64,000 nucleotides of DNA, taken from positions 34 through 64,033 of the forward strand of contig NZ_JAHAHT010000002.1 of the NCBI RefSeq assembly GCF_018373095.1, written 5' to 3'. The position numbers were made by a program, and so were the translations under genes. The notes beneath the pieces were generated by a model. That model was not told the DNA's origin and ran no database searches. It worked only from the letters and a program-made list of their open reading frames with translations. The stretch comes from Haemophilus parahaemolyticus. GTDB lineage: Bacteria; Pseudomonadota; Gammaproteobacteria; Enterobacterales; Pasteurellaceae. Of this stretch, positions 1 to 24,242 are shown in pieces; within the stretch, counting starts at the first letter, position 1, and each line of letters starts with the position of its first letter.

Positions 1-2099
1 GTTTATATAAACCAGAAGATGTTCACTATATGGATATTTCAACCCAACAAGTGGTGTCTGTGGCTGCTGCACTTATTCCGTTCCTGGAGCACGACGATGC
101 GAACCGTGCGTTGATGGGTGCGAACATGCAACGTCAAGCAGTTCCAACATTACGTGCGGACAAACCGTTAGTGGGTACAGGTATGGAAAAACCTATCGCT
201 CTTGACTCTGGTGTAGCTGTAGTTGCAAAACGCGGTGGTGTGGTGCAATACGTTGACGCATCACGTATCGTGGTGAAAGTCAATGAAGATGAAACGATCC
301 CAGGCGAAGCGGGTATCGACATTTACAACTTAATCAAATACACCCGTTCAAACCAAAACACCTGTATTAACCAAATTCCTTGTGTGAATTTAGGTGAGCC
401 AGTAGCACGTGGTGAGATCTTAGCAGACGGTCCTTCAACAGACTTAGGTGAATTAGCGTTAGGTCAAAACATTCGCGTGGCATTTATGCCTTGGAATGGT
501 TATAACTTCGAAGACTCAATGTTAGTGTCTGAACGTGTGGTTCAAGAAGACCGTTTCACGACAATCCACATTCAAGAATTATCTTGTGTAGCACGTGATA
601 CCAAGTTAGGTGCGGAAGAGATCACCGCGGATATTCCAAATGTGGGTGAATCTGCATTAAGCAAACTAGATGAATCAGGTATCGTTTATGTGGGTGCGGA
701 AGTCAAAGGTGGCGACATCTTAGTGGGTAAAGTAACCCCTAAAGGCGAAACCCAATTAACGCCAGAAGAAAAACTTTTACGTGCAATCTTTGGTGAGAAA
801 GCATCTGATGTTAAAGACTCTTCATTACGCGTACCAAACGGCACTTCAGGTACGGTTATTGATGTTCAAGTCTTCACGCGTGATGGTGTACAAAAGGATA
901 AACGTGCATTAGAAATCGAAGAAATGCAGCTTCGTGAAGCGAAAAAAGACTTAACCGAAGAGTTAGAGATCTTAGAGGCGGGCTTATTCGCACGCGTACG
1001 TAGCCTTTTAGTGGAAGGCGGCGCGGCAGAAGCGACTTTAAATGCAGTTTCTCGTGAAAAATGGTTAGAACAAACGCTTGAAGATGAAGCAAAACAAAAT
1101 CAATTAGAACAACTTGCAGAACAATATGATGAATTACGTAAAGAGTTCGAACGTAAACTTGAAGTTAAACGTAATAAGATTATTCAAGGCGATGATTTAG
1201 CTCCTGGCGTGTTAAAAGTGGTGAAAGTGTATCTTGCTGTGAAACGTCAAATCCAACCAGGGGATAAAATGGCGGGTCGTCACGGTAACAAAGGGGTTAT
1301 CTCAAAAATCAACCCAGTTGAAGATATGCCATACGACGAAAACGGTCAGCCTGTGGAAATCGTGTTGAACCCTCTGGGCGTTCCATCACGTATGAACATC
1401 GGTCAGATCTTAGAAACCCACTTAGGTTTAGCGGCGAAAGGTATCGGTGACCAAATTAATGCGATGATTAAACAGCAACAATCAGTGGCGAAATTACGTG
1501 AATATATCCAAAAAGCGTATGATTTAGGTCACGGTTCACAAAAAGTGGATTTAAGCACCTTCTCTGATGAAGAGATTATGCGTTTAGCTGAAAACCTCCG
1601 TAAAGGTTTACCGCTTGCAACACCAGTGTTTGATGGTGCACACGAAAGCGAAATCAAAGGCTTATTAGAGCTTGGCGGCTTACCAACATCAGGTCAAATT
1701 ACCTTATTTGATGGTCGCACAGGGGAGAAATTCGAGCGTCCTGTAACCGTAGGTTATATGTATATGCTCAAATTGAACCACTTAGTTGATGATAAAATGC
1801 ACGCTCGTTCAACAGGTTCTTATAGTCTTGTTACTCAACAACCGCTTGGTGGTAAAGCACAATTCGGTGGCCAGCGTTTCGGTGAGATGGAGGTTTGGGC
1901 ATTAGAAGCATATGGTGCGGCTTACACTCTACAAGAAATGCTTACAGTGAAATCGGATGACGTGAATGGTCGTACGAAGATGTATAAAAACATCGTAGAT
2001 GGTACGCACTACATGGAACCAGGTATTCCAGAGTCGTTCAACGTAATCACCAAAGAAATCCGTGCATTAGCGATTGATATGGAGTTGGATGAGGCGTAA
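1..2099 (+). CDS. rpoB: DNA-directed RNA polymerase subunit beta. Partial: only the C-terminal ~699 codons are in the window; the frame is open from position 3.
   Basis: The translation matches the RpoB C-terminal half (e.g. ...[25 protein letters not shown]..., ...[19 protein letters not shown]). It lies immediately upstream of rpoC. Confidence 0.97.
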
Positions 2100-2361
2100 T
2101 TAGAGGTTAACGGAGAAAGAAAAGCTCTCTTCTTTAGTAAAGAGGGGCTGTGGGAGATTTGATAGCAATGTGAAATCTCCCAATGTACTCCGTTTTTACT
2201 TCTGCCAAATCTCCCCTAACCCTTCTTTACCAAAGAGGGAGACGGGAACAAGCGGTCAAATTTGCAAAAAATTTTACAAATCGAACCGCTTGCAATCGAA
2301 AAAAAATTTATAAGGTGGGCGAAGCCTGCCAAGCAAAACAACCTCAAACTAGGGGCAAAAA
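2100..2361 (+). promoter_or_regulatory. rpoB-rpoC intergenic region with several alternative stem-loops and an inverted USS pair. Likely a processing or partial attenuation site.
   Basis: GGGAGATTT at ~2148 can pair with AAATCTCCC at ~2173 or ~2206. CTCTTCTTTA..AAAGAGGGG and CCCTTCTTTA..AAAGAGGG are palindromes. ACAAGCGGTC at 2248 faces GACCGCTTG at 2283. E. coli has an RNase III site and attenuator at this junction. Confidence 0.4.
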
Positions 2362-5300
2362 GTGAAAGACTTAGTTAAGTTTTTAAAAGCACAATCTAAA
2401 TCAAATGATGATTTTGATGTAATTAAAATCGGTTTAGCCTCACCAGATAAGATTCGTTCTTGGTCTTTTGGTGAAGTGAAAAAACCAGAAACCATCAATT
2501 ACCGTACCTTTAAACCTGAGCGTGATGGTCTTTTCTGTGCACGTATTTTCGGGCCGGTAAAAGATTACGAATGTTTATGTGGCAAATACAAACGCTTAAA
2601 ACACCGTGGTGTAATTTGTGAAAAATGTGGCGTTGAAGTAACCCAAACTAAAGTTCGTCGTGATCGTATGGGTCATATCGAATTAGCTTGCCCTGTGGCA
2701 CATATCTGGTTTTTAAAATCATTACCGTCCCGTATCGGTTTGATTTTAGATATGCCATTGCGTGATATTGAACGTGTGCTTTATTTCGAAAGCTATGTGG
2801 TAACAGAACCAGGTATGACTGATTTAGAAAAAGGTCAGTTATTAACTGAAGAACAGTTCATGGACGCAGAAGAGCGTTGGGGCGATGAGTTTGATGCGAA
2901 AATGGGTGCAGAAGGTATTCAAGCGTTATTACGCGATATGGATTTAGAGCACCAATGTGAAATGATGCGTGAAGAGTTACAAGAAACTAACTCTGAAACT
3001 AAACGTAAAAAAATCACAAAACGTTTAAAATTATTAGAAGCGTTCCAACAATCTGGTAACAAACCAGAATGGATGGTAATGACTGTGTTGCCAGTGCTTC
3101 CACCAGATTTACGTCCATTAGTACCACTTGATGGTGGTCGTTTTGCGACATCAGATCTGAACGATTTATACCGTCGTGTGATCAACCGTAATAACCGTTT
3201 AAAACGCTTATTAGACCTCGTAGCACCAGACATTATCGTGCGTAACGAAAAACGTATGTTGCAAGAGTCTGTAGACGCGTTATTAGATAACGGTCGTCGT
3301 GGTCGTGCGATTACAGGTTCAAACAAACGTCCATTAAAATCTCTTGCCGATATGATCAAGGGTAAACAAGGTCGTTTCCGTCAGAACTTGTTAGGTAAAC
3401 GTGTTGACTATTCGGGTCGTTCGGTAATTACCGTAGGTCCATACTTACGTCTTCACCAATGTGGTTTGCCGAAAAAAATGGCATTGGAATTATTCCGTCC
3501 ATTTATTTACTCAAAATTAGAAAACCGTGGCATTGCATCAACAATCAAAGCTGCGAAGAAAATGGTTGAGCGTGAAGAGCCGATCGTATGGGATATTCTT
3601 GCAGAAGTTATCCGCGAACACCCGATTCTTCTAAACCGTGCACCAACCCTTCACCGTTTAGGTATTCAGGCATTCGAGCCAATCCTTATCGAAGGTAAAG
3701 CAATCCAGTTACACCCACTTGTTTGTGCAGCGTTCAATGCGGACTTCGATGGTGACCAAATGGCGGTTCACGTTCCATTAACGTTAGAGGCACAGTTAGA
3801 AGCACGTGCGTTAATGATGTCAACCAACAACGTACTTTCACCAGCAAGTGGTGACCCAATTATTGTTCCATCTCAAGACGTTGTATTAGGTTTGTACTAT
3901 ATGACTCGTGAGAAAGTAAACGGTAAAGGCGAAGGAATGTACTTCTTAGACCCACGCGAGGCAGAAAAAGCCTATCGCACAGGTCAAGCAGAGTTACATT
4001 CACGTGTTAAAGTACGTATTACTGAATATGTGAAAAATGAAGCGGGCGAATTTGAACCAAAAACTTCATTAATCGACACCACAGTTGGTCGTGCAATTTT
4101 ATGGATGATCGCACCGAAAGGTATGCCATACAAATTATTCAACCAAACGTTAGGTAAAAAAGCGATTTCTAAGCTCATCAACGAATGTTACCGTCGTTTA
4201 GGCTTGAAAGAGTCTGTATTACTTGCTGACCAAGTAATGTACACAGGTTTCGCATATGCGGCACGTTCTGGTGCATCAGTGGGTATCAACGATATGGTGA
4301 TCCCAGCACAAAAAGAAGAGATCATCCGTGCAGCAGAAGCAGAAGTTGCTGAGATCCAAGAGCAATTTAACTCAGGTTTAGTAACCGTAGGCGAACGTTA
4401 TAACAAAGTAATCGATATTTGGGCTGCGGCGAACGAACGCGTGGCGAAAGCGATGATGGACAACCTTTCAACGGAAGAAGTGATTAACCGTGAAGGTAAC
4501 CCAGAAAAACAAGCTTCATTCAACAGCATCTTTATGATGGCGGACTCTGGTGCACGTGGTTCTGCAGCTCAGATTCGTCAGTTAGCAGGTATGCGTGGTT
4601 TGATGGCACGTCCAGATGGTTCGATCATCGAAACTCCAATCACGGCGAACTTCCGTGAAGGCTTGAACGTTCTTCAGTACTTTATTTCAACCCACGGTGC
4701 ACGTAAAGGTCTTGCCGATACGGCGTTGAAAACTGCGAACTCTGGTTACTTAACTCGTCGTTTAGTAGATGTAGCACAAGACTTAGTAATCATCGAAGAC
4801 GATTGTGGTACTTCAGAAGGTATCGTAATGACTCCACACATTGAAGGTGGTGATGAAAAAGTACCATTACGCGAATTAGTATTAGGTCGTGTAGCAGCTG
4901 AAGACGTATTAAAACCAGGTTCAGAAGAAGTATTAATTCCGCGTAACACCTTAATCGATGAAAAATGGTGTGATGTGATTGATGAGAACTCTGTTGATAG
5001 CATCAAAGTACGTTCTGTTGTAACTTGTGATACCGATTTCGGTGTGTGTGCGAAATGTTACGGACGTGACTTGGCACGCGGTCACTTAATCAACCAAGGT
5101 GAAGCAGTGGGTGTTATTGCGGCACAATCAATCGGTGAGCCAGGTACACAGTTAACCATGCGTACGTTCCACATCGGTGGTGCGGCATCTGCGGCAGCCA
5201 AAGAGTCTAGCGTACAAGTAAAAAACAACGGTACGATCAAGTTAGCAAATGCGAAATTCGTTACTAACAAAGAGGATAAGTTGGTATTAACTTCACGTAA

Positions 5301-6648
5301 CACTGAATTAACCGTGATTGACACCTTCGGTCGTACCAAAGAGAACTATAAAGTTCCTTACGGTGCAGTGCTTTCTAAACACGACGGCGATGAAGTGGCA
5401 GTAGGCGAAGTAGTTGCAAACTGGGATCCGCATACAATGCCAGTTATCTCAGAGGTATCAGGTCGCATCCAATTCAGCGACATCGTCGATGGTCTAACCG
5501 TTACTCGTCAAACGGATGAATTAACAGGTGTATCATCAATCGTGGTACAAGATGTGGGTGAGCGTGCAACTGCAGGTAAAGATTTACGTCCAGCATTACG
5601 CTTAGTGGATGCAAACGGTAATGATATCTTAATCCCTGGCACAGATGTTCCTGCACAATACTTCTTACCGGGTAAAGCGATTGTAACGCTTGATGATGGT
5701 GCAGAAATCGCAGTGGGTGAAGCATTAGCACGTATTCCACAAGAATCTGTAGGTACGAAAGATATTACCGGTGGTCTTCCACGCGTTGCAGACTTATTCG
5801 AAGCACGTAAACCGAAAGAACCAGCAATCCTTGCGGAAATCTCAGGTATCGTTTCATTCGGTAAAGAAACCAAAGGTAAACGCCGCTTAGTAATCACTCC
5901 TGCAGAGGGCGAAGCATACGAAGAAATGATTCCAAAATGGCGTCAGCTCAACGTATTCGAAGGCGAAATGGTACAACGTGGTGACGTGATTTCTGATGGT
6001 GCAGAAACGCCACACGATATCTTACGTTTACGCGGCGTACACGCAGTAACCAACTACATCGTGAACGAAGTACAAGAAGTTTACCGCTTACAAGGGGTAA
6101 AAATTAACGATAAACACATCGAAGTTATCGTTCGCCAAATGTTGCGTAAAGCAATCATCACCAACGCTTACGACTCAGAATTCCTTGAAGGGGAACAAGT
6201 GGAAGTGGCACGCGTGAAAATTGCAAACCGCAAACGTGCAGCAGAAGGCAAACCGTTGGTAGAATTTGAACGTGAATTGCTAGGTATCACCAAAGCATCA
6301 CTTGCGACTGAATCATTTATCTCAGCGGCATCGTTCCAAGAAACTACCCGTGTGCTTACCGAAGCAGCCGTTGCAGGTAAACAAGACGAATTACGAGGCT
6401 TGAAAGAGAACGTTATCGTAGGTCGTTTAATCCCAGCAGGTACAGGTTTTGCTTACCACAAAGCACGTGCAGAAAAACGTGCTGCGGCAGCTGCAGGACA
6501 AGCGGTTGATTTTGCAGAAACTTTTGCAAATCCAACCAACAGTTTTGCCACTGATGCAGACATTGAAGCAGAGTTTGAGTTCGTCGCTGACGACGCAACC
6601 CAAAGCTTAGCTGCTTTGTTAAATGCAGAAATGGATTCAGAAGAGTAA
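2362..6648 (+). CDS. rpoC: DNA-directed RNA polymerase subunit beta prime (GTG start)
   Basis: 1428-aa ORF with the zinc-finger CxxC..CxxC, NADFDGD catalytic motif and full-length RpoC similarity. Conserved rpoBC synteny. Confidence 0.98.
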
Positions 6649-6656
6649 TCCAGAAG

Positions 6657-6726
6657 GTGGGCTTCTAGCCCACCAATTAAAGATAGAGAAAGCCCTCAGG
6701 ACATTGAGTTCTGAGGGTTTTTATTT
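6657..6726 (+). terminator. rpoC terminator made of two consecutive hairpins
   Basis: GGTGGGCttctaGCCCACC at 6657-6675, then AGCCCTCAG..CTGAGGGTTTTTATTT at 6691-6726. Confidence 0.6.
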
Positions 6727-6873
6727 ATGCGAAAACGAAAATCTTTGCTAAAGCGATGATGAAAAAATAGAAAAATAATTATTTCTGAACGAATTAAATT
6801 TTGTAGAAGAAAATTGGGGATTGTACCAAAAAAAGGTATAATCCCCTTAATTTTTTATGATAAAGAGAACGTT

Positions 6874-7680
6874 ATGAGTAATATTCCATTAAGAAACGAA
6901 CAAGAAATCGAGAAACTTCGTGAAGCCTGCAAATTAGCTTCCGATGTGTTAGTAATGATTGAACCTTATGTGAAAGAGGGCGTGAGCACAGGCGAATTAG
7001 ACCGCATTTGCCACGAATATATGGTTAATGAGCAGAAAGTAATTCCTGCTTGTTTAAACTATCACGGATTCCCAAAATCAACCTGCATTTCTATTAATGA
7101 AGTAGTTTGCCACGGAATTCCAAGTGATGACAAAAAGCTGAAAAAAGGTGATATTGTAAACATCGATGTCACGGTAATCAAAGACGGCTATTTCGGCGAC
7201 AACTCCAAAATGTATGTGGTAGGCGAGCCTTCTATTCGTGATAAACGCTTATTAGAAGTAACACAAGAATCACTTTACATTGGCTTACGCCAAGTAAAAC
7301 CAGGCATTCGCTTAAAAGAGATCGGCACAGCGATTCAAAAATATGTGGAAAAAGAAGGCTTCTCTGTGGTACGTGAATATTGCGGTCACGGCGTAGGCAC
7401 AGAGTTCCACTGCGATCCACAAGTCTTGCACTACAACGGTGACGATGGTGGTGTAGTGTTAAAAGAAGGCATGGTGTTTACCATTGAACCAATGGTCAAT
7501 GCAGGCAAAAAAGAGATCCGCACGATGAATGATGGCTGGACAGTAAAAACCAAAGACCGTAGCCACTCAGCTCAATATGAACACCAAATTGTGGTGACCA
7601 AAGATGGCTGTGAAGTGATGACCATTCGTGATGAAGAAATTGCCGAAGGGCGAATTTCGCGTGTAATGGTGAATGTATAA
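6874..7680 (+). CDS. map: methionine aminopeptidase type I
   Basis: MSNIPLRNEQEIEKLREACKLA... shows full-length MAP similarity and the metal-binding residues (HGIP, CGHGVG). The ATG at 6874 is preferred over the longer ORF that starts at 6814. Confidence 0.95.
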   Translation: MSNIPLRNEQEIEKLREACKLASDVLVMIEPYVKEGVSTGELDRICHEYMVNEQKVIPACLNYHGFPKSTCISINEVVCHGIPSDDKKLKKGDIVNIDVTVIKDGYFGDNSKMYVVGEPSIRDKRLLEVTQESLYIGLRQVKPGIRLKEIGTAIQKYVEKEGFSVVREYCGHGVGTEFHCDPQVLHYNGDDGGVVLKEGMVFTIEPMVNAGKKEIRTMNDGWTVKTKDRSHSAQYEHQIVVTKDGCEVMTIRDEEIAEGRISRVMVNV

Positions 7681-7700
7681 AATTTAATTCTTTAAAGTAA

Positions 7701-7738
7701 AAGGCTGATTGATTTCCTCCAATCAGCCTTATTTTTAC
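7701..7738. terminator. bidirectional rho-independent terminator downstream of map
   Basis: AAGGCTGATTGatttcctccAATCAGCCTT followed by ATTTTTACT. Confidence 0.6.
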
Positions 7739-7842
7739 TCCTTCGGCAAGCGAGAAAGGATACCCACGCCAACGATAGTATCTGCTGTCACAAATTTCAG
7801 TGCTGCTTTCGCCGCTATTTTCTTCATTTCTTGTTGGTTCAT
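7735..7842 (-). pseudogene. rpiA: 5' remnant of ribose-5-phosphate isomerase A: 35 codons, of which only the first ~27 residues are RpiA-like.
   Basis: The minus-strand frame reads MNQQEMKKIAAKAALKFVTADTIVGVG, then ILSRLPKE*. This matches the E. coli RpiA N-terminus [31 protein letters not shown] and diverges where the GTGST motif should be. The rest of the gene is missing. Confidence 0.6.
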
Positions 7843-8093
7843 TACGTTTTCCTATTATTGCTTTAAAGATAAAAATTGGTCTCAATGTGTGCCAAAGAGC
7901 AAGCTACATCAAGTGATAATTTGTCATAAGTCATTTGAAAATTTTTCTGAAAATAAAAAATTTTGTTTTGCTAATTTTCCGCTAATTTTTCCTCTCTAGA
8001 ATACACACCATCAAGAGTAGAGATGCTTTTGGTCATAATGATTTTAAACTCTATGAAAATAAACTATTTTTACATGCTTACAAGGAGCAACTT

Positions 8094-8717
8094 ATGAAAA
8101 AATCAGTAAAAACTTTAGCAGCAACATTATTAGCAGGTATTATGGCTTTCGGTGCAATCAATGCAAATGCAATGTCTCCAAAAGACCAAGATGCTTTGGG
8201 TAAAGCTAAAATCACGGCAGCACAAGCATTATCTACCGCACAAACAAAAATCGGTGCCGATGCGAAAATAAAAAGTATTGATTTTAAACATCACTACTTT
8301 GGTAAAGATCATTTTGAAGTTGAAATGTTTGCTAACGGTCAAAAACAAAAAGTGGCAGTAGATGCAGCAAGCGGTGATATTTTAGGCGTGGAAAGCAAAG
8401 CCCTTAAAACCGTGAAAGTTAGCCCAACAGCAGATATTGCACCACAAGTGAACTTCGCTCAAGCAATGGACACCGCGGTAGCAAAAACGGGCGGTAAAGT
8501 GGCAGAAGCGGACTTAGAATATAAACGCGGTATGGTATTCTACAAAATTGAAACCGTAAACAATGGTGTGGTTTATAAAGTGGCGGTAGATGCAAACAGC
8601 GGGCAAATTATTGATATGCCACAAAAACATGAAGGTAAACATCATAAACACGCTCGTTTTGAAAAAGGCGAACGTCACAAACATCCTCAAAATGAAGGCG
8701 GTTTCCGTCAAAACTAA
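8094..8717 (+). CDS. secreted tandem-PepSY domain protein with a His-rich C-terminal tail
   Basis: Signal peptide MKKSVKTLAATLLAGIMAFGAINANA. Two PepSY-like repeats (...FEVEMFANGQKQKVAVDAASGDILGVE and ...VFYKIETVNNGVVYKVAVDANSGQIIDM). The tail is HEGKHHKHARFEKGERHKHPQNEGG. Confidence 0.8.
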   Translation: MKKSVKTLAATLLAGIMAFGAINANAMSPKDQDALGKAKITAAQALSTAQTKIGADAKIKSIDFKHHYFGKDHFEVEMFANGQKQKVAVDAASGDILGVESKALKTVKVSPTADIAPQVNFAQAMDTAVAKTGGKVAEADLEYKRGMVFYKIETVNNGVVYKVAVDANSGQIIDMPQKHEGKHHKHARFEKGERHKHPQNEGGFRQN

Positions 8718-8743
8718 TCTTATCTTCGCATTGTGCGATGTCG

Positions 8744-8768
8744 GGCGGATGTATTTCCGCCTATTTTT
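8744..8768 (+). terminator. hairpin plus T-run after the PepSY gene
   Basis: GGCGGAtgtattTCCGCC followed by TATTTTT. Confidence 0.5.
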
Positions 8769-8808
8769 CGATAAAATCTCGTCAATTTTTTGATCCTTCA
8801 TTTTTACT

Positions 8809-9474
8809 ATGCGAATTTTATTGGTCGAAGACGACAAAATGATTGCCGAAGCGGTATCGAACGGCTTAAAAACCGCTCGTTATGCGGTGGATTGGGTAAA
8901 CAACGGCAACACGGCAGAACAGGCGTTAAACAGCCAACAATATGATTTGGTGTTGCTCGATTTGGGTTTACCAGGGCAAGATGGTTTGCAAGTACTGAAA
9001 CATCTCCGACAAGAGAAAAACAATACGCCTGTGTTGATTGTCACCGCGCGTGATGATTTGGATAGTCGCTTGGCAGGCTTAGACGGTGGGGCGGACGATT
9101 ACATTATTAAACCTTTTGATTTGTCCGAATTACTTGCCCGCATTCGTGCTGTCCTGCGTCGCCAAAGCGGACAAAGTACACCATTGTTAAGTAACGGTGC
9201 TATAACCCTCAATCCGACGAATTACCAAGTTACTCTCGCTGATCAACCGATGCCGATTGAGCTTAGCAACAAAGAGTTTTCCATTCTGCAAGCCTTAATG
9301 ACAAGACCAGGGATTATCCATTCTCGTGCCGATTTGGAAGATAAAATCTACGCGTGGGGCGATGAGGTGGAGAGCAACGCCATTGATTTTCTGATTCACG
9401 CCTTACGCAAGAAAATCGGCAAAGAGCATATTAAAAATGTGCGAGGCGTGGGGTGGTTGGTGTCTAAAAATTAG
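8809..9474 (+). CDS. OmpR/PhoB-family response regulator, QseB/BasR(PmrA)-like
   Basis: MRILLVEDDKMIAEAV...DLVLLDLGLPGQDGLQVL receiver domain, followed by a winged-helix C-terminus (ALRKKIGKEHIKNVRGVGW). Confidence 0.9.
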   Translation: MRILLVEDDKMIAEAVSNGLKTARYAVDWVNNGNTAEQALNSQQYDLVLLDLGLPGQDGLQVLKHLRQEKNNTPVLIVTARDDLDSRLAGLDGGADDYIIKPFDLSELLARIRAVLRRQSGQSTPLLSNGAITLNPTNYQVTLADQPMPIELSNKEFSILQALMTRPGIIHSRADLEDKIYAWGDEVESNAIDFLIHALRKKIGKEHIKNVRGVGWLVSKN

Positions 9475-9511
9475 TGATACCTCGGATAATAACCTTACCC
9501 TAAGAGGAAAA

Positions 9512-10891
9512 ATGAAAAACTCAATCCAACTCAAACTCACTTTAGCTTTTACTGCCCTTTTCACCGTGGTGGCAGGCATTGCGGGCGGTGTTTCGTTCTA
9601 CGATACTTACCGCGAAACGTACAAACTGCAAGACGATATGTTGGTTCAGCTTTCGGGCTTTGTCAATTCTGTGGAAAATCCGACCGCACTTTCGGGGGAT
9701 TTTCGTCCACCACGCGATAACGATGCACGAATTTATATGCATTTTGAGCGAAACGGCACGCATACAGAAAGTCTTCCGCCGAATTTTCCACAGCAAATGG
9801 AAGATGGTTTCCATACACTCAGAAAAGATGGCAAAAAATACAAAAGAGTCAAACCGCACAAAGAAAATCGCTTTTGGTTTACGTTGAAAAACGCCAATGA
9901 TTTATACCGCACTTACGTTCGTAACACACCCAACGGCAAGATTATCATCACCCAAGAAAATGAATATCGTGAAGAACTGGCATTCCGCAGTGCATGGCAG
10001 AGCGTGATTCCGCTGATTGTGTTGTTGCCGTTGATTATTTTGCTGACCATTTGGATTGTCCGTCTCGCAATGAAGCCTGTAGACAGACTTTCTCACAAGC
10101 TAGAAAAACGCCACGAGCAAAATCTTACACCGTTGCCGACGGAAAAAATCCCGAGCGAAATTCGCGGATTTGTGGTGGAAATCAACCGCTTGCTGGGGCG
10201 AACAGATGAATTTATTCAGCAACAAAAACGCTTTATTGCGGATGCGTCACACGAGTTGCGTAGTCCGATGACTGCACTTTCCTTGCAAGTAGAGCAACTC
10301 GCTCATCAAGATTTGCCTGCTGAAGCCAAAACTCAACTTATCCAAGTGAAACAAGGTCTTCAGCGTAGTCGTAACTTACTAGAACAGCTGCTTTCATTGG
10401 CTCGCATTCAAAATAACAAAATGGAAAACCACAGCGATTTTAACGTGCAGGATATTTTCCGCAGCGTAATTGAAGATTTGCTACCTCTTGCCCTCGATAA
10501 AGATCAGGATTTGGGTGTAACGAATGAGCAAGCAGTCAAGTTCCACGGTTCAGAAACGGATCTCTACTTGCTCGTTAAAACGCTGGTGGATAACGCCATT
10601 CGCTACACACCAAACGGTAGCCAGATTGATTTAAGTGTCAAAGAGAAAGGCGGTAGCATTCAGATCTGCGTAGAAGATAACGGCAACGGCATTCCACCAG
10701 AAGAACGCCAACGTGTGCTAGATCCGTTCTACCGCATTCTTGGCACAGAGCAACAAGGCTCTGGCTTAGGCTTGGCGATTGCTGAGGAGATTGTGAAAAA
10801 TTATGGTGGAAAAATTGAATTAAAAGATTCAGTGAGTTTTGAAACGGGGTTGTTAGTGGAAGTTGAATTACCAACAAGCGGTCAAATTTAG
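9512..10891 (+). CDS. sensor histidine kinase, QseC/BasS(PmrB)-like
   Basis: Two TM segments flank a periplasmic domain, followed by HAMP, the H-box FIADASHELRSPMTAL and HATPase_c N/G boxes (DNGNGIP, GSGLGLAI). The ATG at 9512 has an AAGAGGAAA RBS; the longer ORF from 9437 overlaps the response regulator. Confidence 0.9.
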   Translation: MKNSIQLKLTLAFTALFTVVAGIAGGVSFYDTYRETYKLQDDMLVQLSGFVNSVENPTALSGDFRPPRDNDARIYMHFERNGTHTESLPPNFPQQMEDGFHTLRKDGKKYKRVKPHKENRFWFTLKNANDLYRTYVRNTPNGKIIITQENEYREELAFRSAWQSVIPLIVLLPLIILLTIWIVRLAMKPVDRLSHKLEKRHEQNLTPLPTEKIPSEIRGFVVEINRLLGRTDEFIQQQKRFIADASHELRSPMTALSLQVEQLAHQDLPAEAKTQLIQVKQGLQRSRNLLEQLLSLARIQNNKMENHSDFNVQDIFRSVIEDLLPLALDKDQDLGVTNEQAVKFHGSETDLYLLVKTLVDNAIRYTPNGSQIDLSVKEKGGSIQICVEDNGNGIPPEERQRVLDPFYRILGTEQQGSGLGLAIAEEIVKNYGGKIELKDSVSFETGLLVEVELPTSGQI

Positions 10892-10899
10892 GAAATTTT

Positions 10900-10926
10900 T
10901 TGTAAAAGTGATTAAGGCGATATAAT
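10900..10926 (+). promoter_or_regulatory. putative sigma-70 promoter for the FtsZ-like gene
   Basis: TTGTAA, a ~15-nt spacer and a perfect TATAAT at 10921-10926. AGGAG RBS at 10969-10973, 7 nt before the ATG. Confidence 0.4.
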
Positions 10927-10980
10927 TTGTTGCATTATTTTATTATTCTGCATATAGCTTAAATCAATAGGAGAAGAAAA

Positions 10981-11661
10981 ATGTTTGAGCCGATTTTTGA
11001 AGAAAAAATTATCCCTGTAATTTCTATTGTTGCCAAAGGCGAATTTGGTGTGAGAGTGGTTAATTCGTTGATGTATCCAGCTAAAATTTACTGCTTAAAA
11101 TTTGAAGAACTAGAAGAGTTATCAAAGAATGATATGACATTTATTGTAGCAGATAAACTTAATGAAGAGGAATGGGCAAAAATCCGCCGAGCAACATCAA
11201 ATCCCATTGTTGTTGTAGGCTGTTCAATGCCAGAAGAAGTAGAATTTGCTAGTTGCTCTTTTAATGAAACCTCTACAGAATTATGTAGCAAAATAATAAA
11301 ATCTATTATTGATATCCTGACTCAGGAAGGTTTAGTTGACATTGATTTCGCAGATATTCACCGAATTTTATTTGAATGTGGTAAACACGCTAAAGCTGGT
11401 TATGCTAAAAATATGTTAGCTAAAGATGCGACTAGAAAGATATTAAATCAATTAGGCGATAAATCCGTTTCACTCGACAAAGCGAAAGGAGTATTAATCA
11501 ATATTGTTGCAGGTGAGCAATTAGAATTTAAAGAGGTTGATTTGATTACTCAAACAATCATTGAAAAAACCAACCAAGAAGCAACCATTATTTTTGGCAC
11601 AAGATTTGATACAAATAAATCAGGTAAAGAATTAGATTTAAGCGTGGTAGTAACTTACTAA
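10981..11661 (+). CDS. truncated, GTPase-motif-deficient FtsZ paralog (226 aa), monocistronic
   Basis: The N-terminus MFEPIFEEKIIPVISIVAKGEFGVRVVNSLM aligns to E. coli FtsZ MFEPMELTNDAVIKVIGVGGGGGNAVEHMV. The C-terminal ~110 aa (GLVDIDFADIHRIL...AKGVLINIVAGEQLEFKEVDLITQTI...ATIIFGTRFD...ELDLSVVVTY) aligns to the FtsZ C-terminal domain (GLMNVDFADVRTVM...ARGVLVNITAGFDLRLDEFETVGNTI...ATVVIGTSLD...ELRVTVVATG). There is no GGGTGTG T4 loop, linker or C-terminal peptide. Confidence 0.8.
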   Translation: MFEPIFEEKIIPVISIVAKGEFGVRVVNSLMYPAKIYCLKFEELEELSKNDMTFIVADKLNEEEWAKIRRATSNPIVVVGCSMPEEVEFASCSFNETSTELCSKIIKSIIDILTQEGLVDIDFADIHRILFECGKHAKAGYAKNMLAKDATRKILNQLGDKSVSLDKAKGVLINIVAGEQLEFKEVDLITQTIIEKTNQEATIIFGTRFDTNKSGKELDLSVVVTY

Positions 11662-11665
11662 AATA

Positions 11666-11710
11666 CAAGCGGTAGATTTTGCAATTTGTTTTACAGAATC
11701 CACCGCTTGT
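11666..11710. terminator. bidirectional terminator formed by an inverted USS pair, shared by the FtsZ-like gene and glmM
   Basis: ACAAGCGGTagattttgcaatttgttttacagaatccACCGCTTGT followed by TGTTT. Confidence 0.55.
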
Positions 11711-11724
11711 TGTTTATGGAAGAA

Positions 11725-13056
11725 TTAGTTACGTTTCACTGCTTCCGCAATCTCTTTCGCACAGCTTTGGGCTAACGTTGCATCTTCACACTCTACCATC
11801 ACACGAATAAGCGGTTCTGTACCTGATTTACGTAACAAGATACGTCCTTTTCCTGCTAAGCGTTCTTCTACTGTTTTTGCAACAGCTTTTACTTCTTCGC
11901 TATTGAGTGGGTTTTCACCGCCTGCGAAGCGAACGTTAATTAATACTTGTGGGAAGAGTGGCACGGCTTTTGCTAATTCGTTTAAGGTTAGATTGTGTTT
12001 TACCATTGCCACTAACACTTCAAGCGAGGCAACAATACCATCACCCGTGGTGTTTTTATCTAACACGATGATATGACCTGAGTTTTCACCGCCTAATTTC
12101 CAGCCTTTCTCTTTTAATTGCTCAAGCACATAGCGGTCGCCCACGTTGGCACGTACGAATGGAATAGCAAGCTCTTTTAATGAGAGTTCTAAACTCATAT
12201 TGCTCATCAATGTACCCACTACACCGCCTTTTAATTTGCCCGCACGCAACGCTTCACGTGCCAAAATAAACAGAATTTGGTCGCCATCTACTTTATTGCC
12301 TAAGTGGTCTACCATCATAATGCGGTCGCCATCACCATCGTAAGCTAAACCGATGTCTGCTTCCGACTCTTTCACCACTTTTTGAAGTGCTTTAATGTCA
12401 GTTGCCCCGCATTTTTCGTTGATGTTTAAACCGTTCGGGCGAGTACCAATTTCGATCACATCAGCCCCTAACTCACGCATTACGTTTGGTGCAATGTGGT
12501 AAGTTGCACCGTTCGCACAATCCACCACAATTTTTAAGCCGTCTAAGCTTAATTCGGATGGGAAACCTGCTTTACAAAATTCAATGTAACGACCCGCCGC
12601 ATCATTGATACGGCTCGCCTTACCAAGGTTTGCAGAGTCAACACAATCCATCGGCTCATCTAACATCGCTTCGATCGCTTCTTCCACTTCATCAGGTAAT
12701 TTTTCGCCCACTGATGAGAAGAATTTGATTCCGTTGTCGTAGTATGGGTTGTGAGACGCTGAAATCACGATCCCCGCTTCTGCACGGAAAGTGCGGGTTA
12801 AATACGCAATTGCAGGGGTTGGCATTGGACCGACGAATACCGCAGATAAACCTGCTGCAGTTAAACCTGCTTCAAGTGCTGATTCCAGCATATAGCCAGA
12901 AATACGGGTGTCTTTACCAATAATCACTTTTTTCGTGCCTTGAGTCGCAAGTACTTTACCTGCTGCCCAACCGAGTTTTAACGCAAATTCTGGCGTAATT
13001 GGGAATTTACCGACTTCACCACGTACACCATCTGTACCGAAATATTTGCGAGCCAT
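11725..13056 (-). CDS. glmM: phosphoglucosamine mutase
   Basis: [24 protein letters not shown]... and the active-site SASHNP. Full-length GlmM, 443 aa. Confidence 0.95.
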
Positions 13057-14683: not shown

Positions 14684-15280
14684 TTAGTGTCCACTACAAC
14701 CACAGCCACCATGATTGTGTCCGTGATCATGATGATGGTGATGACCACCGCCACAGCAGCCGTGACCTTCTTCTTCATCGCTGTCGTGACCACCACAGCC
14801 ACAACCGTGTTCGTGACCAGAATGAATGTGACCGTGTGCAATCTCTTCTAAAGTTGCTTCACGTGTACCCACTACTTCTACAGAGAAGAGTAATTCTTGA
14901 CCTGCAAGCATATGGTTACCATCAACCACTACTTCATCGCCATCCACTTCAGTGATCACAACAGGCAATGGACCTAAGTCAGTATCTGCGATAAAACGCA
15001 TACCTACTTCTAATTCCTCTACGCCCATAAATACATCTTTCGGCACACGTTGTACCATATTTTCGTTGTATTCGCCGTAGCCTTCTTCTGGGCTTACACG
15101 CACTTCGAAAGTATCACCAACCGCTTTACCTTCTAATGCCTTTTCTAAGCCTTCAACAAGATTGTTGTGACCGTGTAAGTATTCTAGCGGTTGGTTCACT
15201 GGTGCTTCATCCACTAATACGCCATCTTGAGTACGTACTTGATAAGCAATGCTTGGTACTACGTTTTTAGTAATTTTCAT
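14684..15280 (-). CDS. slyD: FKBP-type peptidyl-prolyl isomerase SlyD with a His/Cys-rich metal-binding tail
   Basis: MKITKNVVPSIAYQVRTQDGVLVDE... FKBP and IF domains. C-terminus HGHIHSGHEHGCGCGGHD...GGGHHHHHDHGHNHGGCGCSGH. Confidence 0.92.
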   Translation of the reverse strand: MKITKNVVPSIAYQVRTQDGVLVDEAPVNQPLEYLHGHNNLVEGLEKALEGKAVGDTFEVRVSPEEGYGEYNENMVQRVPKDVFMGVEELEVGMRFIADTDLGPLPVVITEVDGDEVVVDGNHMLAGQELLFSVEVVGTREATLEEIAHGHIHSGHEHGCGCGGHDSDEEEGHGCCGGGHHHHHDHGHNHGGCGCSGH

Positions 15281-15583
15281 TAAAAATGATCCTTTGTTTA
15301 TATAAAAAATTAACCGCATTGTAGCGGTTTGTATGATATTTGCAAATAGTAAGCGAATTATGACCGCTTGTCTATGAATAGATCTAAAAACCGAGAGAGT
15401 GCATATCTCAAACAGGAATAAAGTTAATTATTTTGATTAAATGTTAAAAGATAATAAACAGCTAAACAAATGTAACTTAATTTAAGTATTTTTGTTTGAT
15501 AAAGCTATATAACAGGCGTAGAATCACACACTCTTCAAAAGTCGGAAATTTTTTATCTTTTAAATTAATTTGAGGACATCAAA

Positions 15584-24180: not shown

Positions 24181-24220
24181 ACGCCCTCCGCTATTTACTT
24201 TATCAAATTAGCAAAAATAA

Positions 24221-24242
24221 TTTTTCGAGTGCATTCGAAAAG
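24221..24242. promoter_or_regulatory. putative CRP-S-like (Sxy-dependent competence regulon) site upstream of comF
   Basis: On the minus strand, TTTTCGAatgcacTCGAAAAA: an inverted repeat with T-run and A-run flanks about 45 bp upstream of the comF start. It resembles the TTTTGCGATC-GATCGCAAAA consensus with one mismatch per half-site. Confidence 0.4.

What the first reader, a model, noticed from the sequence alone, without database searches (positions are those of the whole stretch)
7735..11710. Probable acquired or rearranged segment: an rpiA 5' remnant, then a PepSY sensor accessory, a response regulator, a histidine kinase and the FtsZ-like gene, ending at a USS-pair terminator before glmM
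Immediately after the map terminator, the minus strand encodes MNQQEMKKIAAKAALKFVTADTIVGVG. That is an unmistakable RpiA N-terminus. It then diverges and stops after 35 codons, so rpiA has been truncated here. The next ~3.9 kb carries four genes in a row: a His-tailed PepSY protein with its own terminator, an OmpR-type regulator, a QseC/PmrB-like kinase, and the degenerate FtsZ paralog. This shows that the region between map and glmM has been remodelled. The whole block may travel together as a sensing module whose output includes the FtsZ-like gene.
Basis: partly seen in the sequence, partly recalled or inferred. Interest (0 to 1): 0.55.

Follow-up and report, generated by a model that had tools for sequence, protein, structure and literature searches.

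The report
Variable gene slot with rpiA deletion scar
Between the map and glmM genes of this Haemophilus parahaemolyticus genome, a 3.8-kb deletion left a stump of the rpiA gene beside two independent optional inserts (a known type of three-gene sensor module and a lone shrunken FtsZ copy), which is ordinary genome shuffling in a recombining species, not one mobile four-gene unit.

Summary
The organism is Haemophilus parahaemolyticus. Comparison with about 50 related contigs gives a different reading.

- **Variable slot.** The stretch between the rpiA promoter and the glmM terminator varies within the H. parahaemolyticus/paraphrohaemolyticus population. It is found empty, with the FtsZ-like gene only, with PepSY-RR-HK only, or with both.
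- **rpiA stub.** The 35-codon ORF is an in-frame fusion of rpiA codons 1-27 to the last 8 codons of a small transporter-subunit gene (sms). A single 3,813-bp deletion made it and removed the SNF transporter, serA and the rest of rpiA. Relatives keep the intact layout.
- **Sensor module.** PepSY-RR-HK is self-contained and of the known DbfQRS/BqsQRS type. It has its own conserved direct-repeat promoter box. It sits elsewhere in Rodentibacter and another Haemophilus, without an FtsZ-like gene. It carries two uptake signal sequences (USS) of the Hin type inside a genome that uses the Apl type.
- **FtsZ-like gene.** It is a separate single-gene cassette with its own promoter. The allele here is anciently diverged from the common one (dS about 2.4, against 0.15-0.30 for its neighbours).

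So "remodelled" is right and "travels together" is not supported. I could not determine whether another rpiA or an rpiB exists in this genome.

The parts
7701..7730 (.). Bidirectional hairpin terminator of map. It now also ends the chimeric stub ORF.
   Evidence: Terminator scan on both strands. RNAfold gives -18.5 kcal/mol. The region through 7752 is homologous to the map-downstream region of L003, L042, L046 and L050.
7735..7761 (-). Last 8 codons plus stop (ILSRLPKE*) of the methionine/alanine-importer small-subunit gene (sms, Pfam PF16951). This is the left edge of the deletion.
   Evidence: In L003 and L042 the 30-aa sms ORF ends ...GGLILSIKRLPKE*, downstream of the SNF transporter gene. 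The gene is called, with Pfam PF16951, in L046, L047, L050 and L051.
7762..7842 (-). rpiA codons 1-27, the right edge of the deletion. Fused in frame to the sms tail, they give the 35-codon ORF 7735-7842.
   Evidence: NCBIfam RpiA NF001924, E=1.6e-5. 26/27 identical to L003 RpiA. The junction sequence is the same, apart from single-base substitutions, in 8 other contigs.
7843..7946 (-). Retained rpiA promoter and 5' leader, present in every configuration of the slot. Its last 10 nt (7937-7946, GAAAATTTTT) are the left copy of the direct repeat that brackets the TCS cassette.
   Evidence: 94-95% identity to L003, L014 and L023 across 7761-7946. A promoter-like site lies at 7895-7866 on the minus strand.
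7947..10917 (+). PepSY-RR-HK cassette, about 2.97 kb, absent from L003, L014 and L044. It is bracketed by the 10-nt direct repeat GAAAATTTTT (7937-7946) and GAAATTTTTT (10892-10901).
   Evidence: Breakpoints come from blastn and junction alignments. There is no integrase, transposase or tRNA.
7971..8002 (+). Candidate autoregulatory promoter of the module. A direct repeat CTAATT-N5-CTAATT (7971-7987) is followed by a TAGAAT -10 hexamer (7997-8002).
   Evidence: This is the only perfect copy in the 64-kb window. The same architecture lies upstream of PepSY in Rodentibacter (L034) and in L035.
8094..8717 (+). Secreted protein with two PepSY domains and a His-rich C-terminal tail, in the DbfQ/BqsQ position of the module.
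   Evidence: Pfam PF03413, E=2.4e-17, two stretches. The alignment with L034 and L035 orthologues shows a conserved signal peptide and His-rich tail.
8743..8762 (+). Hairpin plus T-run between PepSY and the RR, probably a partial terminator or attenuator.
   Evidence: Terminator scan. A hairpin holds the same position in L034 and L035, where it is built from a Hin-type USS pair.
8809..9474 (+). OmpR-family response regulator, PmrA/QseB-like.
   Evidence: Pfam Response_reg plus Trans_reg_C. NCBIfam PmrA 243.6 bits (cutoff 330) and QseB 215.7 bits (cutoff 345).
9512..10891 (+). Sensor histidine kinase, QseC/PmrB-like, 459 aa. It contains two Hin-type USS cores (ACCGCACTT at 9683-9691 and 9906-9914) and one Apl-type USS at 10874-10882.
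   Evidence: Pfam HisKA plus HATPase_c. NCBIfam QseC 227.8 bits (cutoff 475). Homologue alignment. USS positions match those in the Rodentibacter HK.
10918..11661 (+). Single-gene FtsZ-like cassette, allele B. It has its own upstream region (10918-10980: degenerate palindrome 10917-10933, TATTCT 10944-10949, RBS 10969-10973) and a CDS at 10981-11661.
   Evidence: Relative to L023, window 10896-11665 (770 bp) replaces 19 bp. The upstream region is conserved with allele A and with L002. The gene is the lowest-GC gene in the window, z=-3.6. AF2 model pLDDT 88.7 with an FtsZ fold, TM about 0.7.
11659..11716 (.). Hairpin made of an inverted Apl-type USS pair. It is the shared terminator of the FtsZ-like gene and glmM, and the fixed right boundary of the slot.
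   Evidence: Inverted repeat I3. RNAfold -23.1 kcal/mol. The element is conserved in L003, L014 and L023, and an analogous one sits in L017.

Best explanation
The interval is one haplotype of a multi-allelic structural polymorphism in a naturally transformable, highly recombining Haemophilus parahaemolyticus/paraphrohaemolyticus population. It is not a single acquired island.

The fixed frame is rpiA and its promoter on one side and the USS-pair terminator of glmM on the other. Two independent cassettes come and go between them.

**1. The PepSY-RR-HK module**
- Shown: it has the DbfQRS/BqsQRS gene architecture. It carries its own conserved direct-repeat promoter box and an internal hairpin after PepSY.
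- Inferred mechanism: the secreted His-tailed PepSY protein modulates the periplasmic sensor domain of the QseC/PmrB-like kinase. The PmrA/QseB-like regulator then activates the module's own promoter through the CTAATT-N5-CTAATT box.
- Inferred origin: it entered this Apl-USS lineage from a Pasteurellaceae donor that uses Hin-type USS.

**2. The solitary miniaturised FtsZ paralogue**
- Shown: it has its own promoter. It has lost the GTP-binding motifs and the C-terminal tail, and keeps the FtsZ C-terminal domain and the T7-loop aspartates.
- Shown: it exists as deeply diverged alleles, and its allele genealogy does not follow the flanking DNA.
- Inferred function: it modulates or caps FtsZ polymers.

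**3. The deletion**
- Shown: on this haplotype a single 3,813-bp deletion removed the 5' part of sms, the SNF-type Na+ transporter gene, serA and rpiA codons 28-219.
- Shown: it fused rpiA codons 1-27 in frame to the last 8 sms codons, next to the map terminator. This explains the 35-codon ORF.
- Inferred: it arose by microhomology-mediated recombination.

The cassettes most likely move by homologous recombination through the conserved flanks after DNA uptake. That step is inferred.
For: **Identity of the organism**
- The proteins equal MBS6008260-65 of an H. parahaemolyticus MAG.
- The window holds 24 Apl-type USS against 4 Hin-type.

**Five configurations of the same slot**
- Empty: L017, where glmM is followed directly by rpiA and serA.
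- FtsZ-like allele A only: L003, L014-16, L044, L040.
- TCS only: L023-25, L041, L045.
- TCS plus allele A with intact sms-SNF-serA-rpiA: L042, L046-49, L050-51.
- Stub plus TCS plus allele B: the window and L001, L004-13, L026-33.

**Breakpoints**
- Window 6600-7752 matches map and its downstream region in the relatives.
- Window 7761-7946 matches the rpiA 5' end plus promoter.
- Window 7947-10917 is the TCS cassette.
- Window 10896-11665 is the FtsZ-like cassette.
- The window lacks L046rc 1691-5503, which is 3,813 bp.

**The deletion**
- The in-frame rpiA'::'sms junction is the same, apart from single-base substitutions, in 8 other contigs. This argues for a single event.

**Autonomy and foreign origin of the TCS module**
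- The same trio lies in unrelated contexts in Rodentibacter haemolyticus (HK 78% identical) and in an uncultured Haemophilus (HK 68%).
- The promoter box is conserved in all three modules and is unique in the window.
- The hairpin after PepSY is conserved in position.
- Two Hin-type USS cores sit at homologous HK positions in the window and in Rodentibacter. The flanking Apl-clade loci have none. The chance of 2 of the window's 4 falling in this block is about 0.012.
- The RR and HK have slightly high GC3 and low codon adaptation.

**Independence of the FtsZ-like cassette**
- Allele B against A gives dS 2.4 and dN 0.45. Against the same relative, glmM gives dS 0.30 and the HK gives dS 0.15.
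- Allele A differs by dS 0.01 between contigs whose flanks differ by about 5%.
- Its upstream region is conserved in genomes that lack the TCS.
- A 32%-identical relative is a lone gene between rnhA and htpG in another bacterium.

**Recombining population**
- The glmM+ilvA tree is star-like. Distances are 5-7% even among contigs that carry the stub.

**Closest characterised module**
- DbfQ binds the DbfS sensor domain. PepSY-TCS neighbourhoods are widespread, including BqsS in P. aeruginosa (PMC12714742).
Against: - The direction of change for the cassettes is not resolved. The 10-nt direct repeat around the TCS block fits either insertion, or deletion in the lineages that lack the TCS. The star-like tree gives no polarity.
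- No functional step was tested. That covers PepSY-HK binding, RR binding to the box, and any effect of the mini-FtsZ on FtsZ.
- The Hin-type USS cores lie in conserved codons (PTAL, YRTY), so part of their conservation could be coding constraint. The enrichment statistic is modest at P about 0.012.
- There is no terminator between the HK and the FtsZ-like gene. On this haplotype the two may therefore be co-transcribed, which would give a local regulatory link that I cannot exclude.
- The microhomology at the deletion junction is short (GGT and a few flanking matches). The mechanism of the deletion is therefore an inference.
Confidence: 0.82

Rival explanations
1. PepSY, RR, HK and the FtsZ-like gene form one sensing module that was acquired and travels as a unit, and the FtsZ-like gene is a transcriptional output of the two-component system.
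For: All four genes are co-oriented, with only 89 nt and no terminator between the HK and the FtsZ-like gene. The combination of TCS and FtsZ-like gene recurs, also with allele A, in L042, L046-51.
Against: Each part occurs without the other in the same slot: FtsZ-like only in L003, L014 and L044, and TCS only in L023-25. The trio in Rodentibacter and in L035 has no FtsZ-like neighbour. FtsZ-like relatives in L002 and the P0009 loci have no TCS neighbour. The RR-type box is absent upstream of the FtsZ-like gene, which keeps the promoter region it has in genomes without the TCS. Synonymous divergence differs about 16-fold between the FtsZ-like gene and the HK.
Confidence: 0.06
2. The rpiA fragment is a by-product of a translocation or duplication. 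On this view an intact serA-rpiA segment was moved elsewhere in this genome, and the stub is only a leftover copy of its 5' end.
For: Ribose-5-phosphate isomerase is normally indispensable, and the haplotype is common in many samples, so some isomerase gene must exist. The region shows other rearrangements. The left flank of serA differs between relatives (SNF transporter and map, against PRT and dnaG). The dcw cluster is no longer next to the FKBP gene in the window.
Against: The junction is a clean in-frame fusion of rpiA codon 27 to the sms tail. Both sides are collinear with the intact layout map-sms-SNF-serA-rpiA seen in L046 and L050, which is the signature of a simple internal deletion. 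No serA, rpiA or SNF transporter sequence lies elsewhere in the 64-kb window. All six different RpiA variants I looked up or found by DNA scan sit at the canonical slot.
Confidence: 0.1
3. The haplotype with both cassettes is ancestral for the species complex. The configurations with only the FtsZ-like gene or only the TCS arose by cassette loss, so nothing was acquired.
For: The slot with both cassettes occurs on both left-flank backgrounds of the paraphrohaemolyticus-like contigs. The 10-nt direct repeat GAAA(A)TTTTT(T) brackets the TCS block, and the genomes without the TCS keep one copy, as expected for repeat-mediated deletion.
Against: The more distant L017 has an empty slot and L002 has only the FtsZ-like gene. 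The TCS carries Hin-type USS fossils and its nearest relatives are in Hin-USS genera. Alleles A and B are far older than the host divergence, and allele A has been exchanged recently. Gain by recombination is therefore also happening. This rival concerns direction only. It is compatible with the main explanation.
Confidence: 0.3

Closest known systems
DbfQRS of Vibrio cholerae and BqsPQRS (PA2659-PA2656 region) of Pseudomonas aeruginosa. These are PepSY-protein plus two-component modules (Nguyen et al., Nat Commun 2025, PMC12714742).
   Same: A small secreted PepSY protein is encoded immediately upstream of, and co-oriented with, an OmpR-family regulator and a periplasm-sensing kinase. The module appears to drive its own promoter. 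In those systems the PepSY protein binds the kinase sensor domain and sets the balance between kinase and phosphatase activity.
   Different: The PepSY protein here has two PepSY domains and a His-rich tail (207 aa, against 135 aa for DbfQ). A hairpin separates it from the RR. The signal is unknown. The BqsS RExxE iron motif is absent (RETYK here), although a membrane-proximal EYRE (ExxE) motif is conserved. Sequence relatedness to DbfS or BqsS was not measured, because I did not have those sequences.
PmrAB (BasRS) and QseBC two-component systems of Enterobacteriaceae
   Same: They are the best-scoring curated models for the RR (PmrA, QseB) and the HK (QseC, PmrB). The candidate binding site is a hexamer direct repeat with 11-bp phasing that overlaps the -35 region, like the PmrA box CTTAAT-N5-CTTAAT (recalled from the literature, not tested here).
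   Different: Scores fall well below the equivalog cutoffs (243.6 against 330, and 227.8 against 475). The half-site is CTAATT, not CTTAAT. Neither PmrAB nor QseBC has a PepSY partner.
Gene remnants left by microhomology-mediated deletion in variable loci (replacement islands) flanked by conserved genes in naturally transformable Pasteurellaceae and Neisseria
   Same: The flanks are conserved and rich in USS. Alternative cassettes occupy one site. No integrase or transposase is present. The flanking sequence is mosaic.
   Different: The deletion here took out two housekeeping genes (rpiA, serA) and produced an in-frame chimeric mini-ORF.
Truncated FtsZ paralogues, for example FtsZ1 of Agrobacterium tumefaciens (bioRxiv 10.1101/2025.09.29.679267), and protein inhibitors of FtsZ such as SulA and MciZ (general knowledge)
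   Same: It is a non-essential extra FtsZ-derived protein that lacks the C-terminal linker and peptide. In Agrobacterium, overexpressing such a paralogue blocks division.
   Different: The Hyphomicrobiales paralogues keep the GTPase domain. This one has lost the G-box and the GGGTGTG signature and about 100 residues of the N-domain. It is a presence/absence cassette with hyperdivergent alleles. SulA and MciZ are unrelated folds.

Membership tests
RpiA (ribose-5-phosphate isomerase A; NCBIfam NF001924, Pfam PF06026), for the 35-codon ORF | N-terminal segment matching the family profile | tested here: met
   Residues 1-27 match profile positions 2-28, E=1.6e-5. They are 26/27 identical to L003 RpiA.
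RpiA (ribose-5-phosphate isomerase A; NCBIfam NF001924, Pfam PF06026), for the 35-codon ORF | Full-length catalytic domain of about 219 aa that reaches the curated cutoff | tested here: not met
   24.4 bits against a cutoff of 192, with no Pfam hit. Codons 28-219 are deleted. It is a remnant, not a functional member.
DbfQRS/BqsQRS-type PepSY plus two-component module | Small secreted protein whose only recognisable domain is PepSY | tested here: met
   Pfam PF03413 only, two stretches. The N-terminal signal peptide with an ANA cleavage motif was read from the sequence and is conserved in orthologues.
DbfQRS/BqsQRS-type PepSY plus two-component module | PepSY gene adjacent to and co-oriented with an OmpR-family RR and a sensor HK, with the neighbourhood conserved across taxa | tested here: met
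   The gene order PepSY-RR-HK is found in the window, L023, L046, Rodentibacter (L034) and L035.
DbfQRS/BqsQRS-type PepSY plus two-component module | PepSY protein binds the periplasmic sensor domain of the HK and shifts it toward phosphatase activity | not testable with these tools
   This needs a complex prediction or a pull-down. The structure tool folds single chains only.
DbfQRS/BqsQRS-type PepSY plus two-component module | Autoregulated promoter upstream of the PepSY gene | tested here: inconclusive
   A CTAATT-N5-CTAATT repeat followed by TAGAAT is conserved in three divergent modules and is unique in the window. RR binding has not been shown.
PmrAB or QseBC equivalogs | Score above the NCBIfam equivalog cutoff | tested here: not met
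   RR: PmrA 243.6 bits against a cutoff of 330, and QseB 215.7 against 345. HK: QseC 227.8 against 475, and PmrB 172.4 against 314. It belongs to the same subfamily but is not an orthologue of either system.
FtsZ (TIGR00065; Pfam PF00091 plus PF12327) | Tubulin/FtsZ GTPase domain with the G-box and the GGGTGTG (T4) signature | tested here: not met
   No PF00091 hit. TIGR00065 scores 62.8 bits against a cutoff of 295. In the alignment GVGGGGGN is replaced by AKGEFGVR, GGGTGTG is lost, and about 100 residues are deleted.
FtsZ (TIGR00065; Pfam PF00091 plus PF12327) | FtsZ C-terminal domain and overall fold | tested here: met
   PF12327, E=7.5e-14. PDB FtsZ hits at E about 2e-11. AF2 model pLDDT 88.7, and Foldseek top hits are FtsZ at TMq 0.6-0.75.
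FtsZ (TIGR00065; Pfam PF00091 plus PF12327) | C-terminal linker and conserved peptide that binds FtsA/ZipA | tested here: not met
   The protein ends at the last strand of the C-terminal domain, with no tail.
Classical genomic island or mobile element | Integrase, transposase or relaxase, a tRNA or att site, terminal repeats | tested here: not met
   There are no such ORFs in 7.7-11.7 kb. There are no tRNA genes in 1-25 kb and no Rfam hits. Only a 10-nt direct repeat flanks the TCS block. No relatives of the FtsZ-like protein covering at least 80% of its length occur on phages or plasmids.

The most novel reading that the evidence does not exclude
The FtsZ-like gene belongs to an undescribed family of about 230-aa "mini-FtsZ" proteins found in host-associated Proteobacteria. 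These proteins have lost GTP binding and the membrane-tether tail, and keep the T7-loop face.

On this reading the family acts as an exchangeable cap or poison of FtsZ filaments. That would be a SulA/MciZ-like function built from FtsZ itself. Its presence/absence polymorphism, ancient alleles (dS about 2.4 at a locus whose flanks differ by about 5%) and high dN/dS would reflect conflict-driven or frequency-dependent selection, for example against phage or competitor factors that target FtsZ.

A second, linked possibility is that strains with this haplotype have truly lost both rpiA and serA. They would then depend on an rpiB-type isomerase and on external serine.
Probability: 0.25. Interest if true: 0.7.

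Novelty: new member of a known kind. Interest (0 to 1): 0.35.

Why it matters
The result replaces a tempting story (a mobile sensing island that controls a cell-division paralogue) with a better supported one. It shows how to read such regions in transformable bacteria. Conserved, USS-rich flanks frame a slot in which unrelated cassettes are shuffled by recombination, and an odd short ORF can be a precise deletion scar.

It gives three practical leads:
- a clean natural set of genomes with and without a DbfQRS-type module, for studying what that module senses in an oral commensal;
- a haplotype that has lost the canonical rpiA and serA, which predicts a metabolic dependency or a backup isomerase;
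- a compact, GTPase-dead FtsZ derivative with unusual population genetics, which could be tested directly as a modulator of FtsZ polymers.

Tried and rejected
1. **A second rpiA in this genome.**
   - tblastn of RpiA, SerA, the SNF transporter and E. coli RpiB against the 64-kb window found only the stub.
   - Six RpiA variants, looked up by exact protein or found by a DNA scan of metagenomes, all sit in the canonical slot of other haplotypes.
   - Proteins from fetched loci could not be looked up.
   - The question stays open.
2. **The genome-contig scan** with the FtsZ-like protein returned only two distant loci, and the window's own species was not returned. The organism was identified through cluster names instead.
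3. **A mobile-element origin** was rejected. There is no integrase, transposase or tRNA, and there are no Rfam, PADLOC or PHROG hits. No FtsZ-like relatives covering at least 80% of the query occur on phages or plasmids.
4. **An RR-type box upstream of the FtsZ-like gene.** Allowing 2 mismatches gave chance-level matches and none in its promoter.
5. **A LexA/SOS box upstream of the FtsZ-like gene**, by analogy with SulA, was considered. The conserved palindrome CGACA-N5-TGTCG does not fit CTGT-N8-ACAG. This was judged by eye only.
6. **A tree of glmM+ilvA** to polarise gains and losses was star-like and recombinant, so it gave no polarity.

Full report
**1. Observation**

- rpoC ends at 6648.
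- map is 6874-7680, followed by a bidirectional hairpin terminator at 7701-7730.
- A 35-codon minus-strand ORF lies at 7735-7842.
- A secreted protein with two PepSY domains and a His-rich tail lies at 8094-8717, followed by a hairpin and T-run at 8743-8762.
- An OmpR-family response regulator lies at 8809-9474.
- A QseC/PmrB-like histidine kinase follows. Its most likely start is 9512, as in its homologues and the NCBI annotation.
- A 226-aa protein at 10981-11661 has only the FtsZ C-terminal domain detectable.
- An inverted pair of Apl-type uptake signal sequences at 11665 and 11702 forms the terminator shared with glmM, 11725-13056.

The first 27 residues of the short ORF match the curated RpiA model at E=1.6e-5. 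They are 26/27 identical to RpiA of H. paraphrohaemolyticus. The DNA of 7761-7946 is 94-95% identical to the rpiA 5' end and promoter of relatives. The remnant is therefore real.

**2. Organism**

Exact-sequence look-ups identify the proteins as MBS6008260-65 of a Haemophilus parahaemolyticus MAG. The window has 24 Apl-type USS against 4 Hin-type. That places it in the Actinobacillus/Mannheimia-like branch of the Pasteurellaceae.

**3. What relatives show**

I collected about 50 related loci, using:
- the FtsZ-like protein;
- RpiA variants;
- HK variants;
- a window neighbour;
- one DNA scan of metagenomes.

The stretch between the rpiA promoter and the glmM terminator occurs in five states.

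| State of the slot | Loci | Notes |
|---|---|---|
| Empty (glmM followed directly by rpiA-serA) | L017 | More distant species, 78% nt identity |
| FtsZ-like allele A only | L003 (H. paraphrohaemolyticus type strain), L014-16, L044, L040 | |
| PepSY-RR-HK only | L023-25, L041, L045 | |
| PepSY-RR-HK plus allele A, next to an intact rpiA | L042, L046-49, L050-51 | Full layout below |
| rpiA stub plus PepSY-RR-HK plus allele B | Window; L001, L004-13, L026-33 | Includes NCBI assembly GCA_977037675.1 |

The fourth state has the full layout rpoC-map-sms-SNF transporter-serA-rpiA<>PepSY-RR-HK-FtsZ-like-glmM-ilvA-FKBP-lpxC-ftsZ. An uncultured Haemophilus (L002) also has rpiA divergent from an FtsZ-like gene (35% identity), with no two-component system.

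**4. The rpiA stub is a deletion scar**

- Window 6600-7752 is collinear with map and its downstream region in L003, L042, L046 and L050.
- Window 7761 onward is collinear with rpiA codon 27 backwards.
- The 3,813 bp between these points in L046 and L050 are missing.
- In the intact layout a 30-codon gene follows the SNF transporter. It is the methionine/alanine importer small subunit, Pfam PF16951, and it ends ...GGLILSIKRLPKE*.
- The window ORF ends ...GVG-ILSRLPKE*.

The 35-codon ORF is therefore an in-frame fusion of rpiA codons 1-27 (7762-7842) with the last 8 sms codons (7735-7761). The crossover sits at a short GGT-containing microhomology. The junction is the same, apart from single-base substitutions, in eight other contigs from different samples, so it arose once.

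This is the signature of a simple internal deletion that removed the 5' part of sms, the transporter gene, serA and rpiA codons 28-219. No rpiA, serA, transporter or E. coli-type rpiB sequence lies elsewhere in the 64-kb window. All other RpiA variants I could trace sit in the canonical slot of other haplotypes. Whether a stub-bearing genome has another isomerase gene therefore remains untested. By inference it must have one, because the haplotype is common.

**5. The PepSY-RR-HK cassette (7947-10917)**

*It is self-contained.*
- The same three genes in the same order lie between unrelated genes in Rodentibacter haemolyticus (HK 78% identical) and in an uncultured Haemophilus (HK 68%). Further HK homologues at 47-54% occur in Basfia, Avibacterium, Actinobacillus porcinus and Neisseria.
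- Upstream of PepSY, all three modules share a direct repeat CTAATT-N5-CTAATT followed about 10 nt later by TAGAAT. In the window the repeat is at 7971-7987 and the hexamer at 7997-8002. The repeat is the only perfect copy in 64 kb.
- A hairpin with a T-run sits between PepSY and the RR in all three modules.
- The RR and HK score best against PmrA/QseB and QseC/PmrB, far below the equivalog cutoffs.

*It matches a known kind.* The architecture is that of the DbfQRS module of Vibrio cholerae and BqsQRS of Pseudomonas. In those systems the periplasmic PepSY protein binds the kinase sensor domain, and such neighbourhoods are reported to be widespread (PMC12714742).

*The likely mechanism is inferred by analogy.* The His-tailed PepSY protein modulates the kinase, possibly in response to a metal or an envelope cue. 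The phosphorylated regulator then activates the module's own promoter.

*Signs of foreign origin.*
- The distribution is patchy and the contexts differ.
- The module is present or absent within the species complex.
- GC3 is slightly high and codon adaptation slightly low.
- Two Hin-type USS cores in the HK gene (9683, 9906) sit at the same codons in the Rodentibacter gene. Rodentibacter is a Hin-USS genome. Otherwise the Apl-clade loci have none. The chance of 2 of the window's 4 falling in this block is about 0.012.

A 10-nt direct repeat (7937-7946 and 10892-10901) brackets the block. This fits either insertion or later repeat-mediated loss, and direction is unresolved.

**6. The FtsZ-like cassette (10918-11661)**

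*Its boundaries and promoter.*
- Relative to the haplotype with only the TCS, a 770-bp segment (10896-11665) replaces 19 bp.
- Its upstream region has a palindrome CGACA-N5-TGTCG (degenerate in the window), a -10-like hexamer and an RBS. The same region abuts the rpiA promoter in genomes without the TCS. The gene therefore brings its own promoter.

*Its protein.*
- It begins MFEPIFEE, like Pasteurellaceae FtsZ (MFEPV.E).
- It has lost the G-box, the GGGTGTG signature, about 100 residues of the N-domain and the whole C-terminal tail.
- It keeps the C-terminal domain and the T7-loop aspartates.
- A high-confidence model (pLDDT 88.7) matches FtsZ structures at TM about 0.7.
- It has no PADLOC or PHROG match. 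It has no relatives on phages or plasmids that cover at least 80% of its length.
- A whole-library HMMER search found only about eight full-length relatives. One of them is a lone gene between rnhA and htpG in another bacterium.

*Its population genetics.*
- It is the most AT-rich gene in the window, GC 0.326, z=-3.6.
- Allele B is 43-44% identical to allele A, with dS about 2.4 and dN 0.45. Against the same relative, glmM has dS 0.30 and the HK has dS 0.15.
- Allele A is nearly identical (dS 0.01) between contigs whose flanks differ by about 5%.
- The cassette therefore has its own history of horizontal exchange, separate from that of the TCS.

*Its function is inferred.* It may act as a GTPase-dead modulator or cap of FtsZ polymers.

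**7. Population context**

A glmM+ilvA comparison is star-like. Distances are 5-7% between almost all contigs, including between contigs that carry the stub. These are haplotypes in a highly recombining, naturally transformable population, not clonal lineages. Together with the USS-rich flanks and the lack of any integrase, transposase, tRNA or known RNA element, this points to one mechanism. The cassettes are most likely shuffled by homologous recombination through rpiA and glmM after DNA uptake.

**8.

The rpiA truncation and the remodelling are correct. The idea of a single acquired four-gene block with the FtsZ-like gene as its output is not supported, for four reasons:
- each part occurs without the other;
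- their promoters differ;
- their evolutionary histories differ;
- the FtsZ-like gene is the usual neighbour of rpiA.

No terminator separates the HK from the FtsZ-like gene. Incidental co-transcription on this haplotype therefore cannot be excluded and should be tested.

**9. Novelty and score**

The sensor module is a new member of a described kind. The stub is an ordinary, if unusually tidy, deletion scar. The slot is a typical recombination-driven variable locus. The mini-FtsZ family and the apparent loss of rpiA and serA are the parts that might repay further work. Overall interest is moderate to low, at 0.35.

Noticed in passing
window 15350 (just past the FKBP gene, 14684-15319): Homology with every relative stops at 15350. 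Relatives continue with lpxC-ftsZ-ftsA-ftsQ-ddl, the end of the dcw cluster. The window continues with a DUF1440 gene, a sulfatase gene and nhaA. This haplotype therefore has a second rearrangement breakpoint that separates glmM-ilvA-FKBP from the division cluster. In relatives the true ftsZ lies only about 5 kb from the FtsZ-like gene, which fits an origin by local duplication.
   Followed up: partly
window 10981-11661, against L046 6173-6865 and L014 9130-9822: Within allele A of the FtsZ-like gene, non-synonymous change equals or exceeds synonymous change (L046 against L014: pN 0.03, pS 0.01; L046 against L003: dN 0.05, dS 0.09). The ends of the gene are far more conserved between alleles A and B than the core. 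This suggests relaxed or diversifying selection and mosaic recombination.
   Followed up: partly
window 10917-10933; L003 about 9955-9970; L002 about 2555-2570: A palindrome CGACA-N5-TGTCG lies upstream of the FtsZ-like gene in alleles A and C. In allele B both arms carry a C-to-T change (CGATA...TGTTG), which would still pair as G-U in RNA. It could be an operator for an unknown regulator or an RNA hairpin.
   Followed up: no
P0008 (497 aa) and P0052 (244 aa), from the representative search: One distant relative of the mini-FtsZ is fused to an N-terminal region of about 270 aa that looks like a helix-turn-helix/WYL-type regulator. Such a fusion might hint at a function in stress or defence. 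The domain assignment was made by eye only.
   Followed up: no
window 23497-24241 (-): A phosphoribosyltransferase-family gene is only 84% identical to the PRT gene that lies directly downstream of serA in L014, L023 and L044. In the window it converges on a LysR gene whose homologue flanks the FtsZ-like gene in L002. This is another trace of repeated rearrangement around serA-rpiA.
   Followed up: no
window 10874-10882: The last codons of the HK gene contain an Apl-type USS (ACAAGCGGT). The TCS-only haplotype L023 has ACAAACAGT at the same place. So a host-type USS exists at the cassette's 3' end in the haplotypes that also carry the FtsZ-like gene (window, L042, L046).
   Followed up: partly
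L031 2234-2895: In one metagenomic contig of the stub haplotype the PepSY gene is split into 45-aa and 130-aa ORFs. This is either a frameshift pseudogene or an assembly error.
   Followed up: no
P0221 and P0222 (RpiA hits on contigs of about 1 kb): Two RpiA sequences have a parahaemolyticus-type N-terminal region of about 170 residues and an H. influenzae-like C-terminus. They are either inter-species recombinants or chimeric metagenome assemblies.
   Followed up: no
window 9512-10891, HK residues about 30-40 and 148-156: Two membrane-proximal periplasmic motifs are conserved from Pasteurellaceae to Neisseria: FYDTYRET-KLQD after TM1 and QENEYREE before TM2. The second contains an ExxE motif like the PmrB iron-binding motif. 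Some Neisseria homologues have RExxE in the first. These are possible metal-sensing residues.
   Followed up: partly
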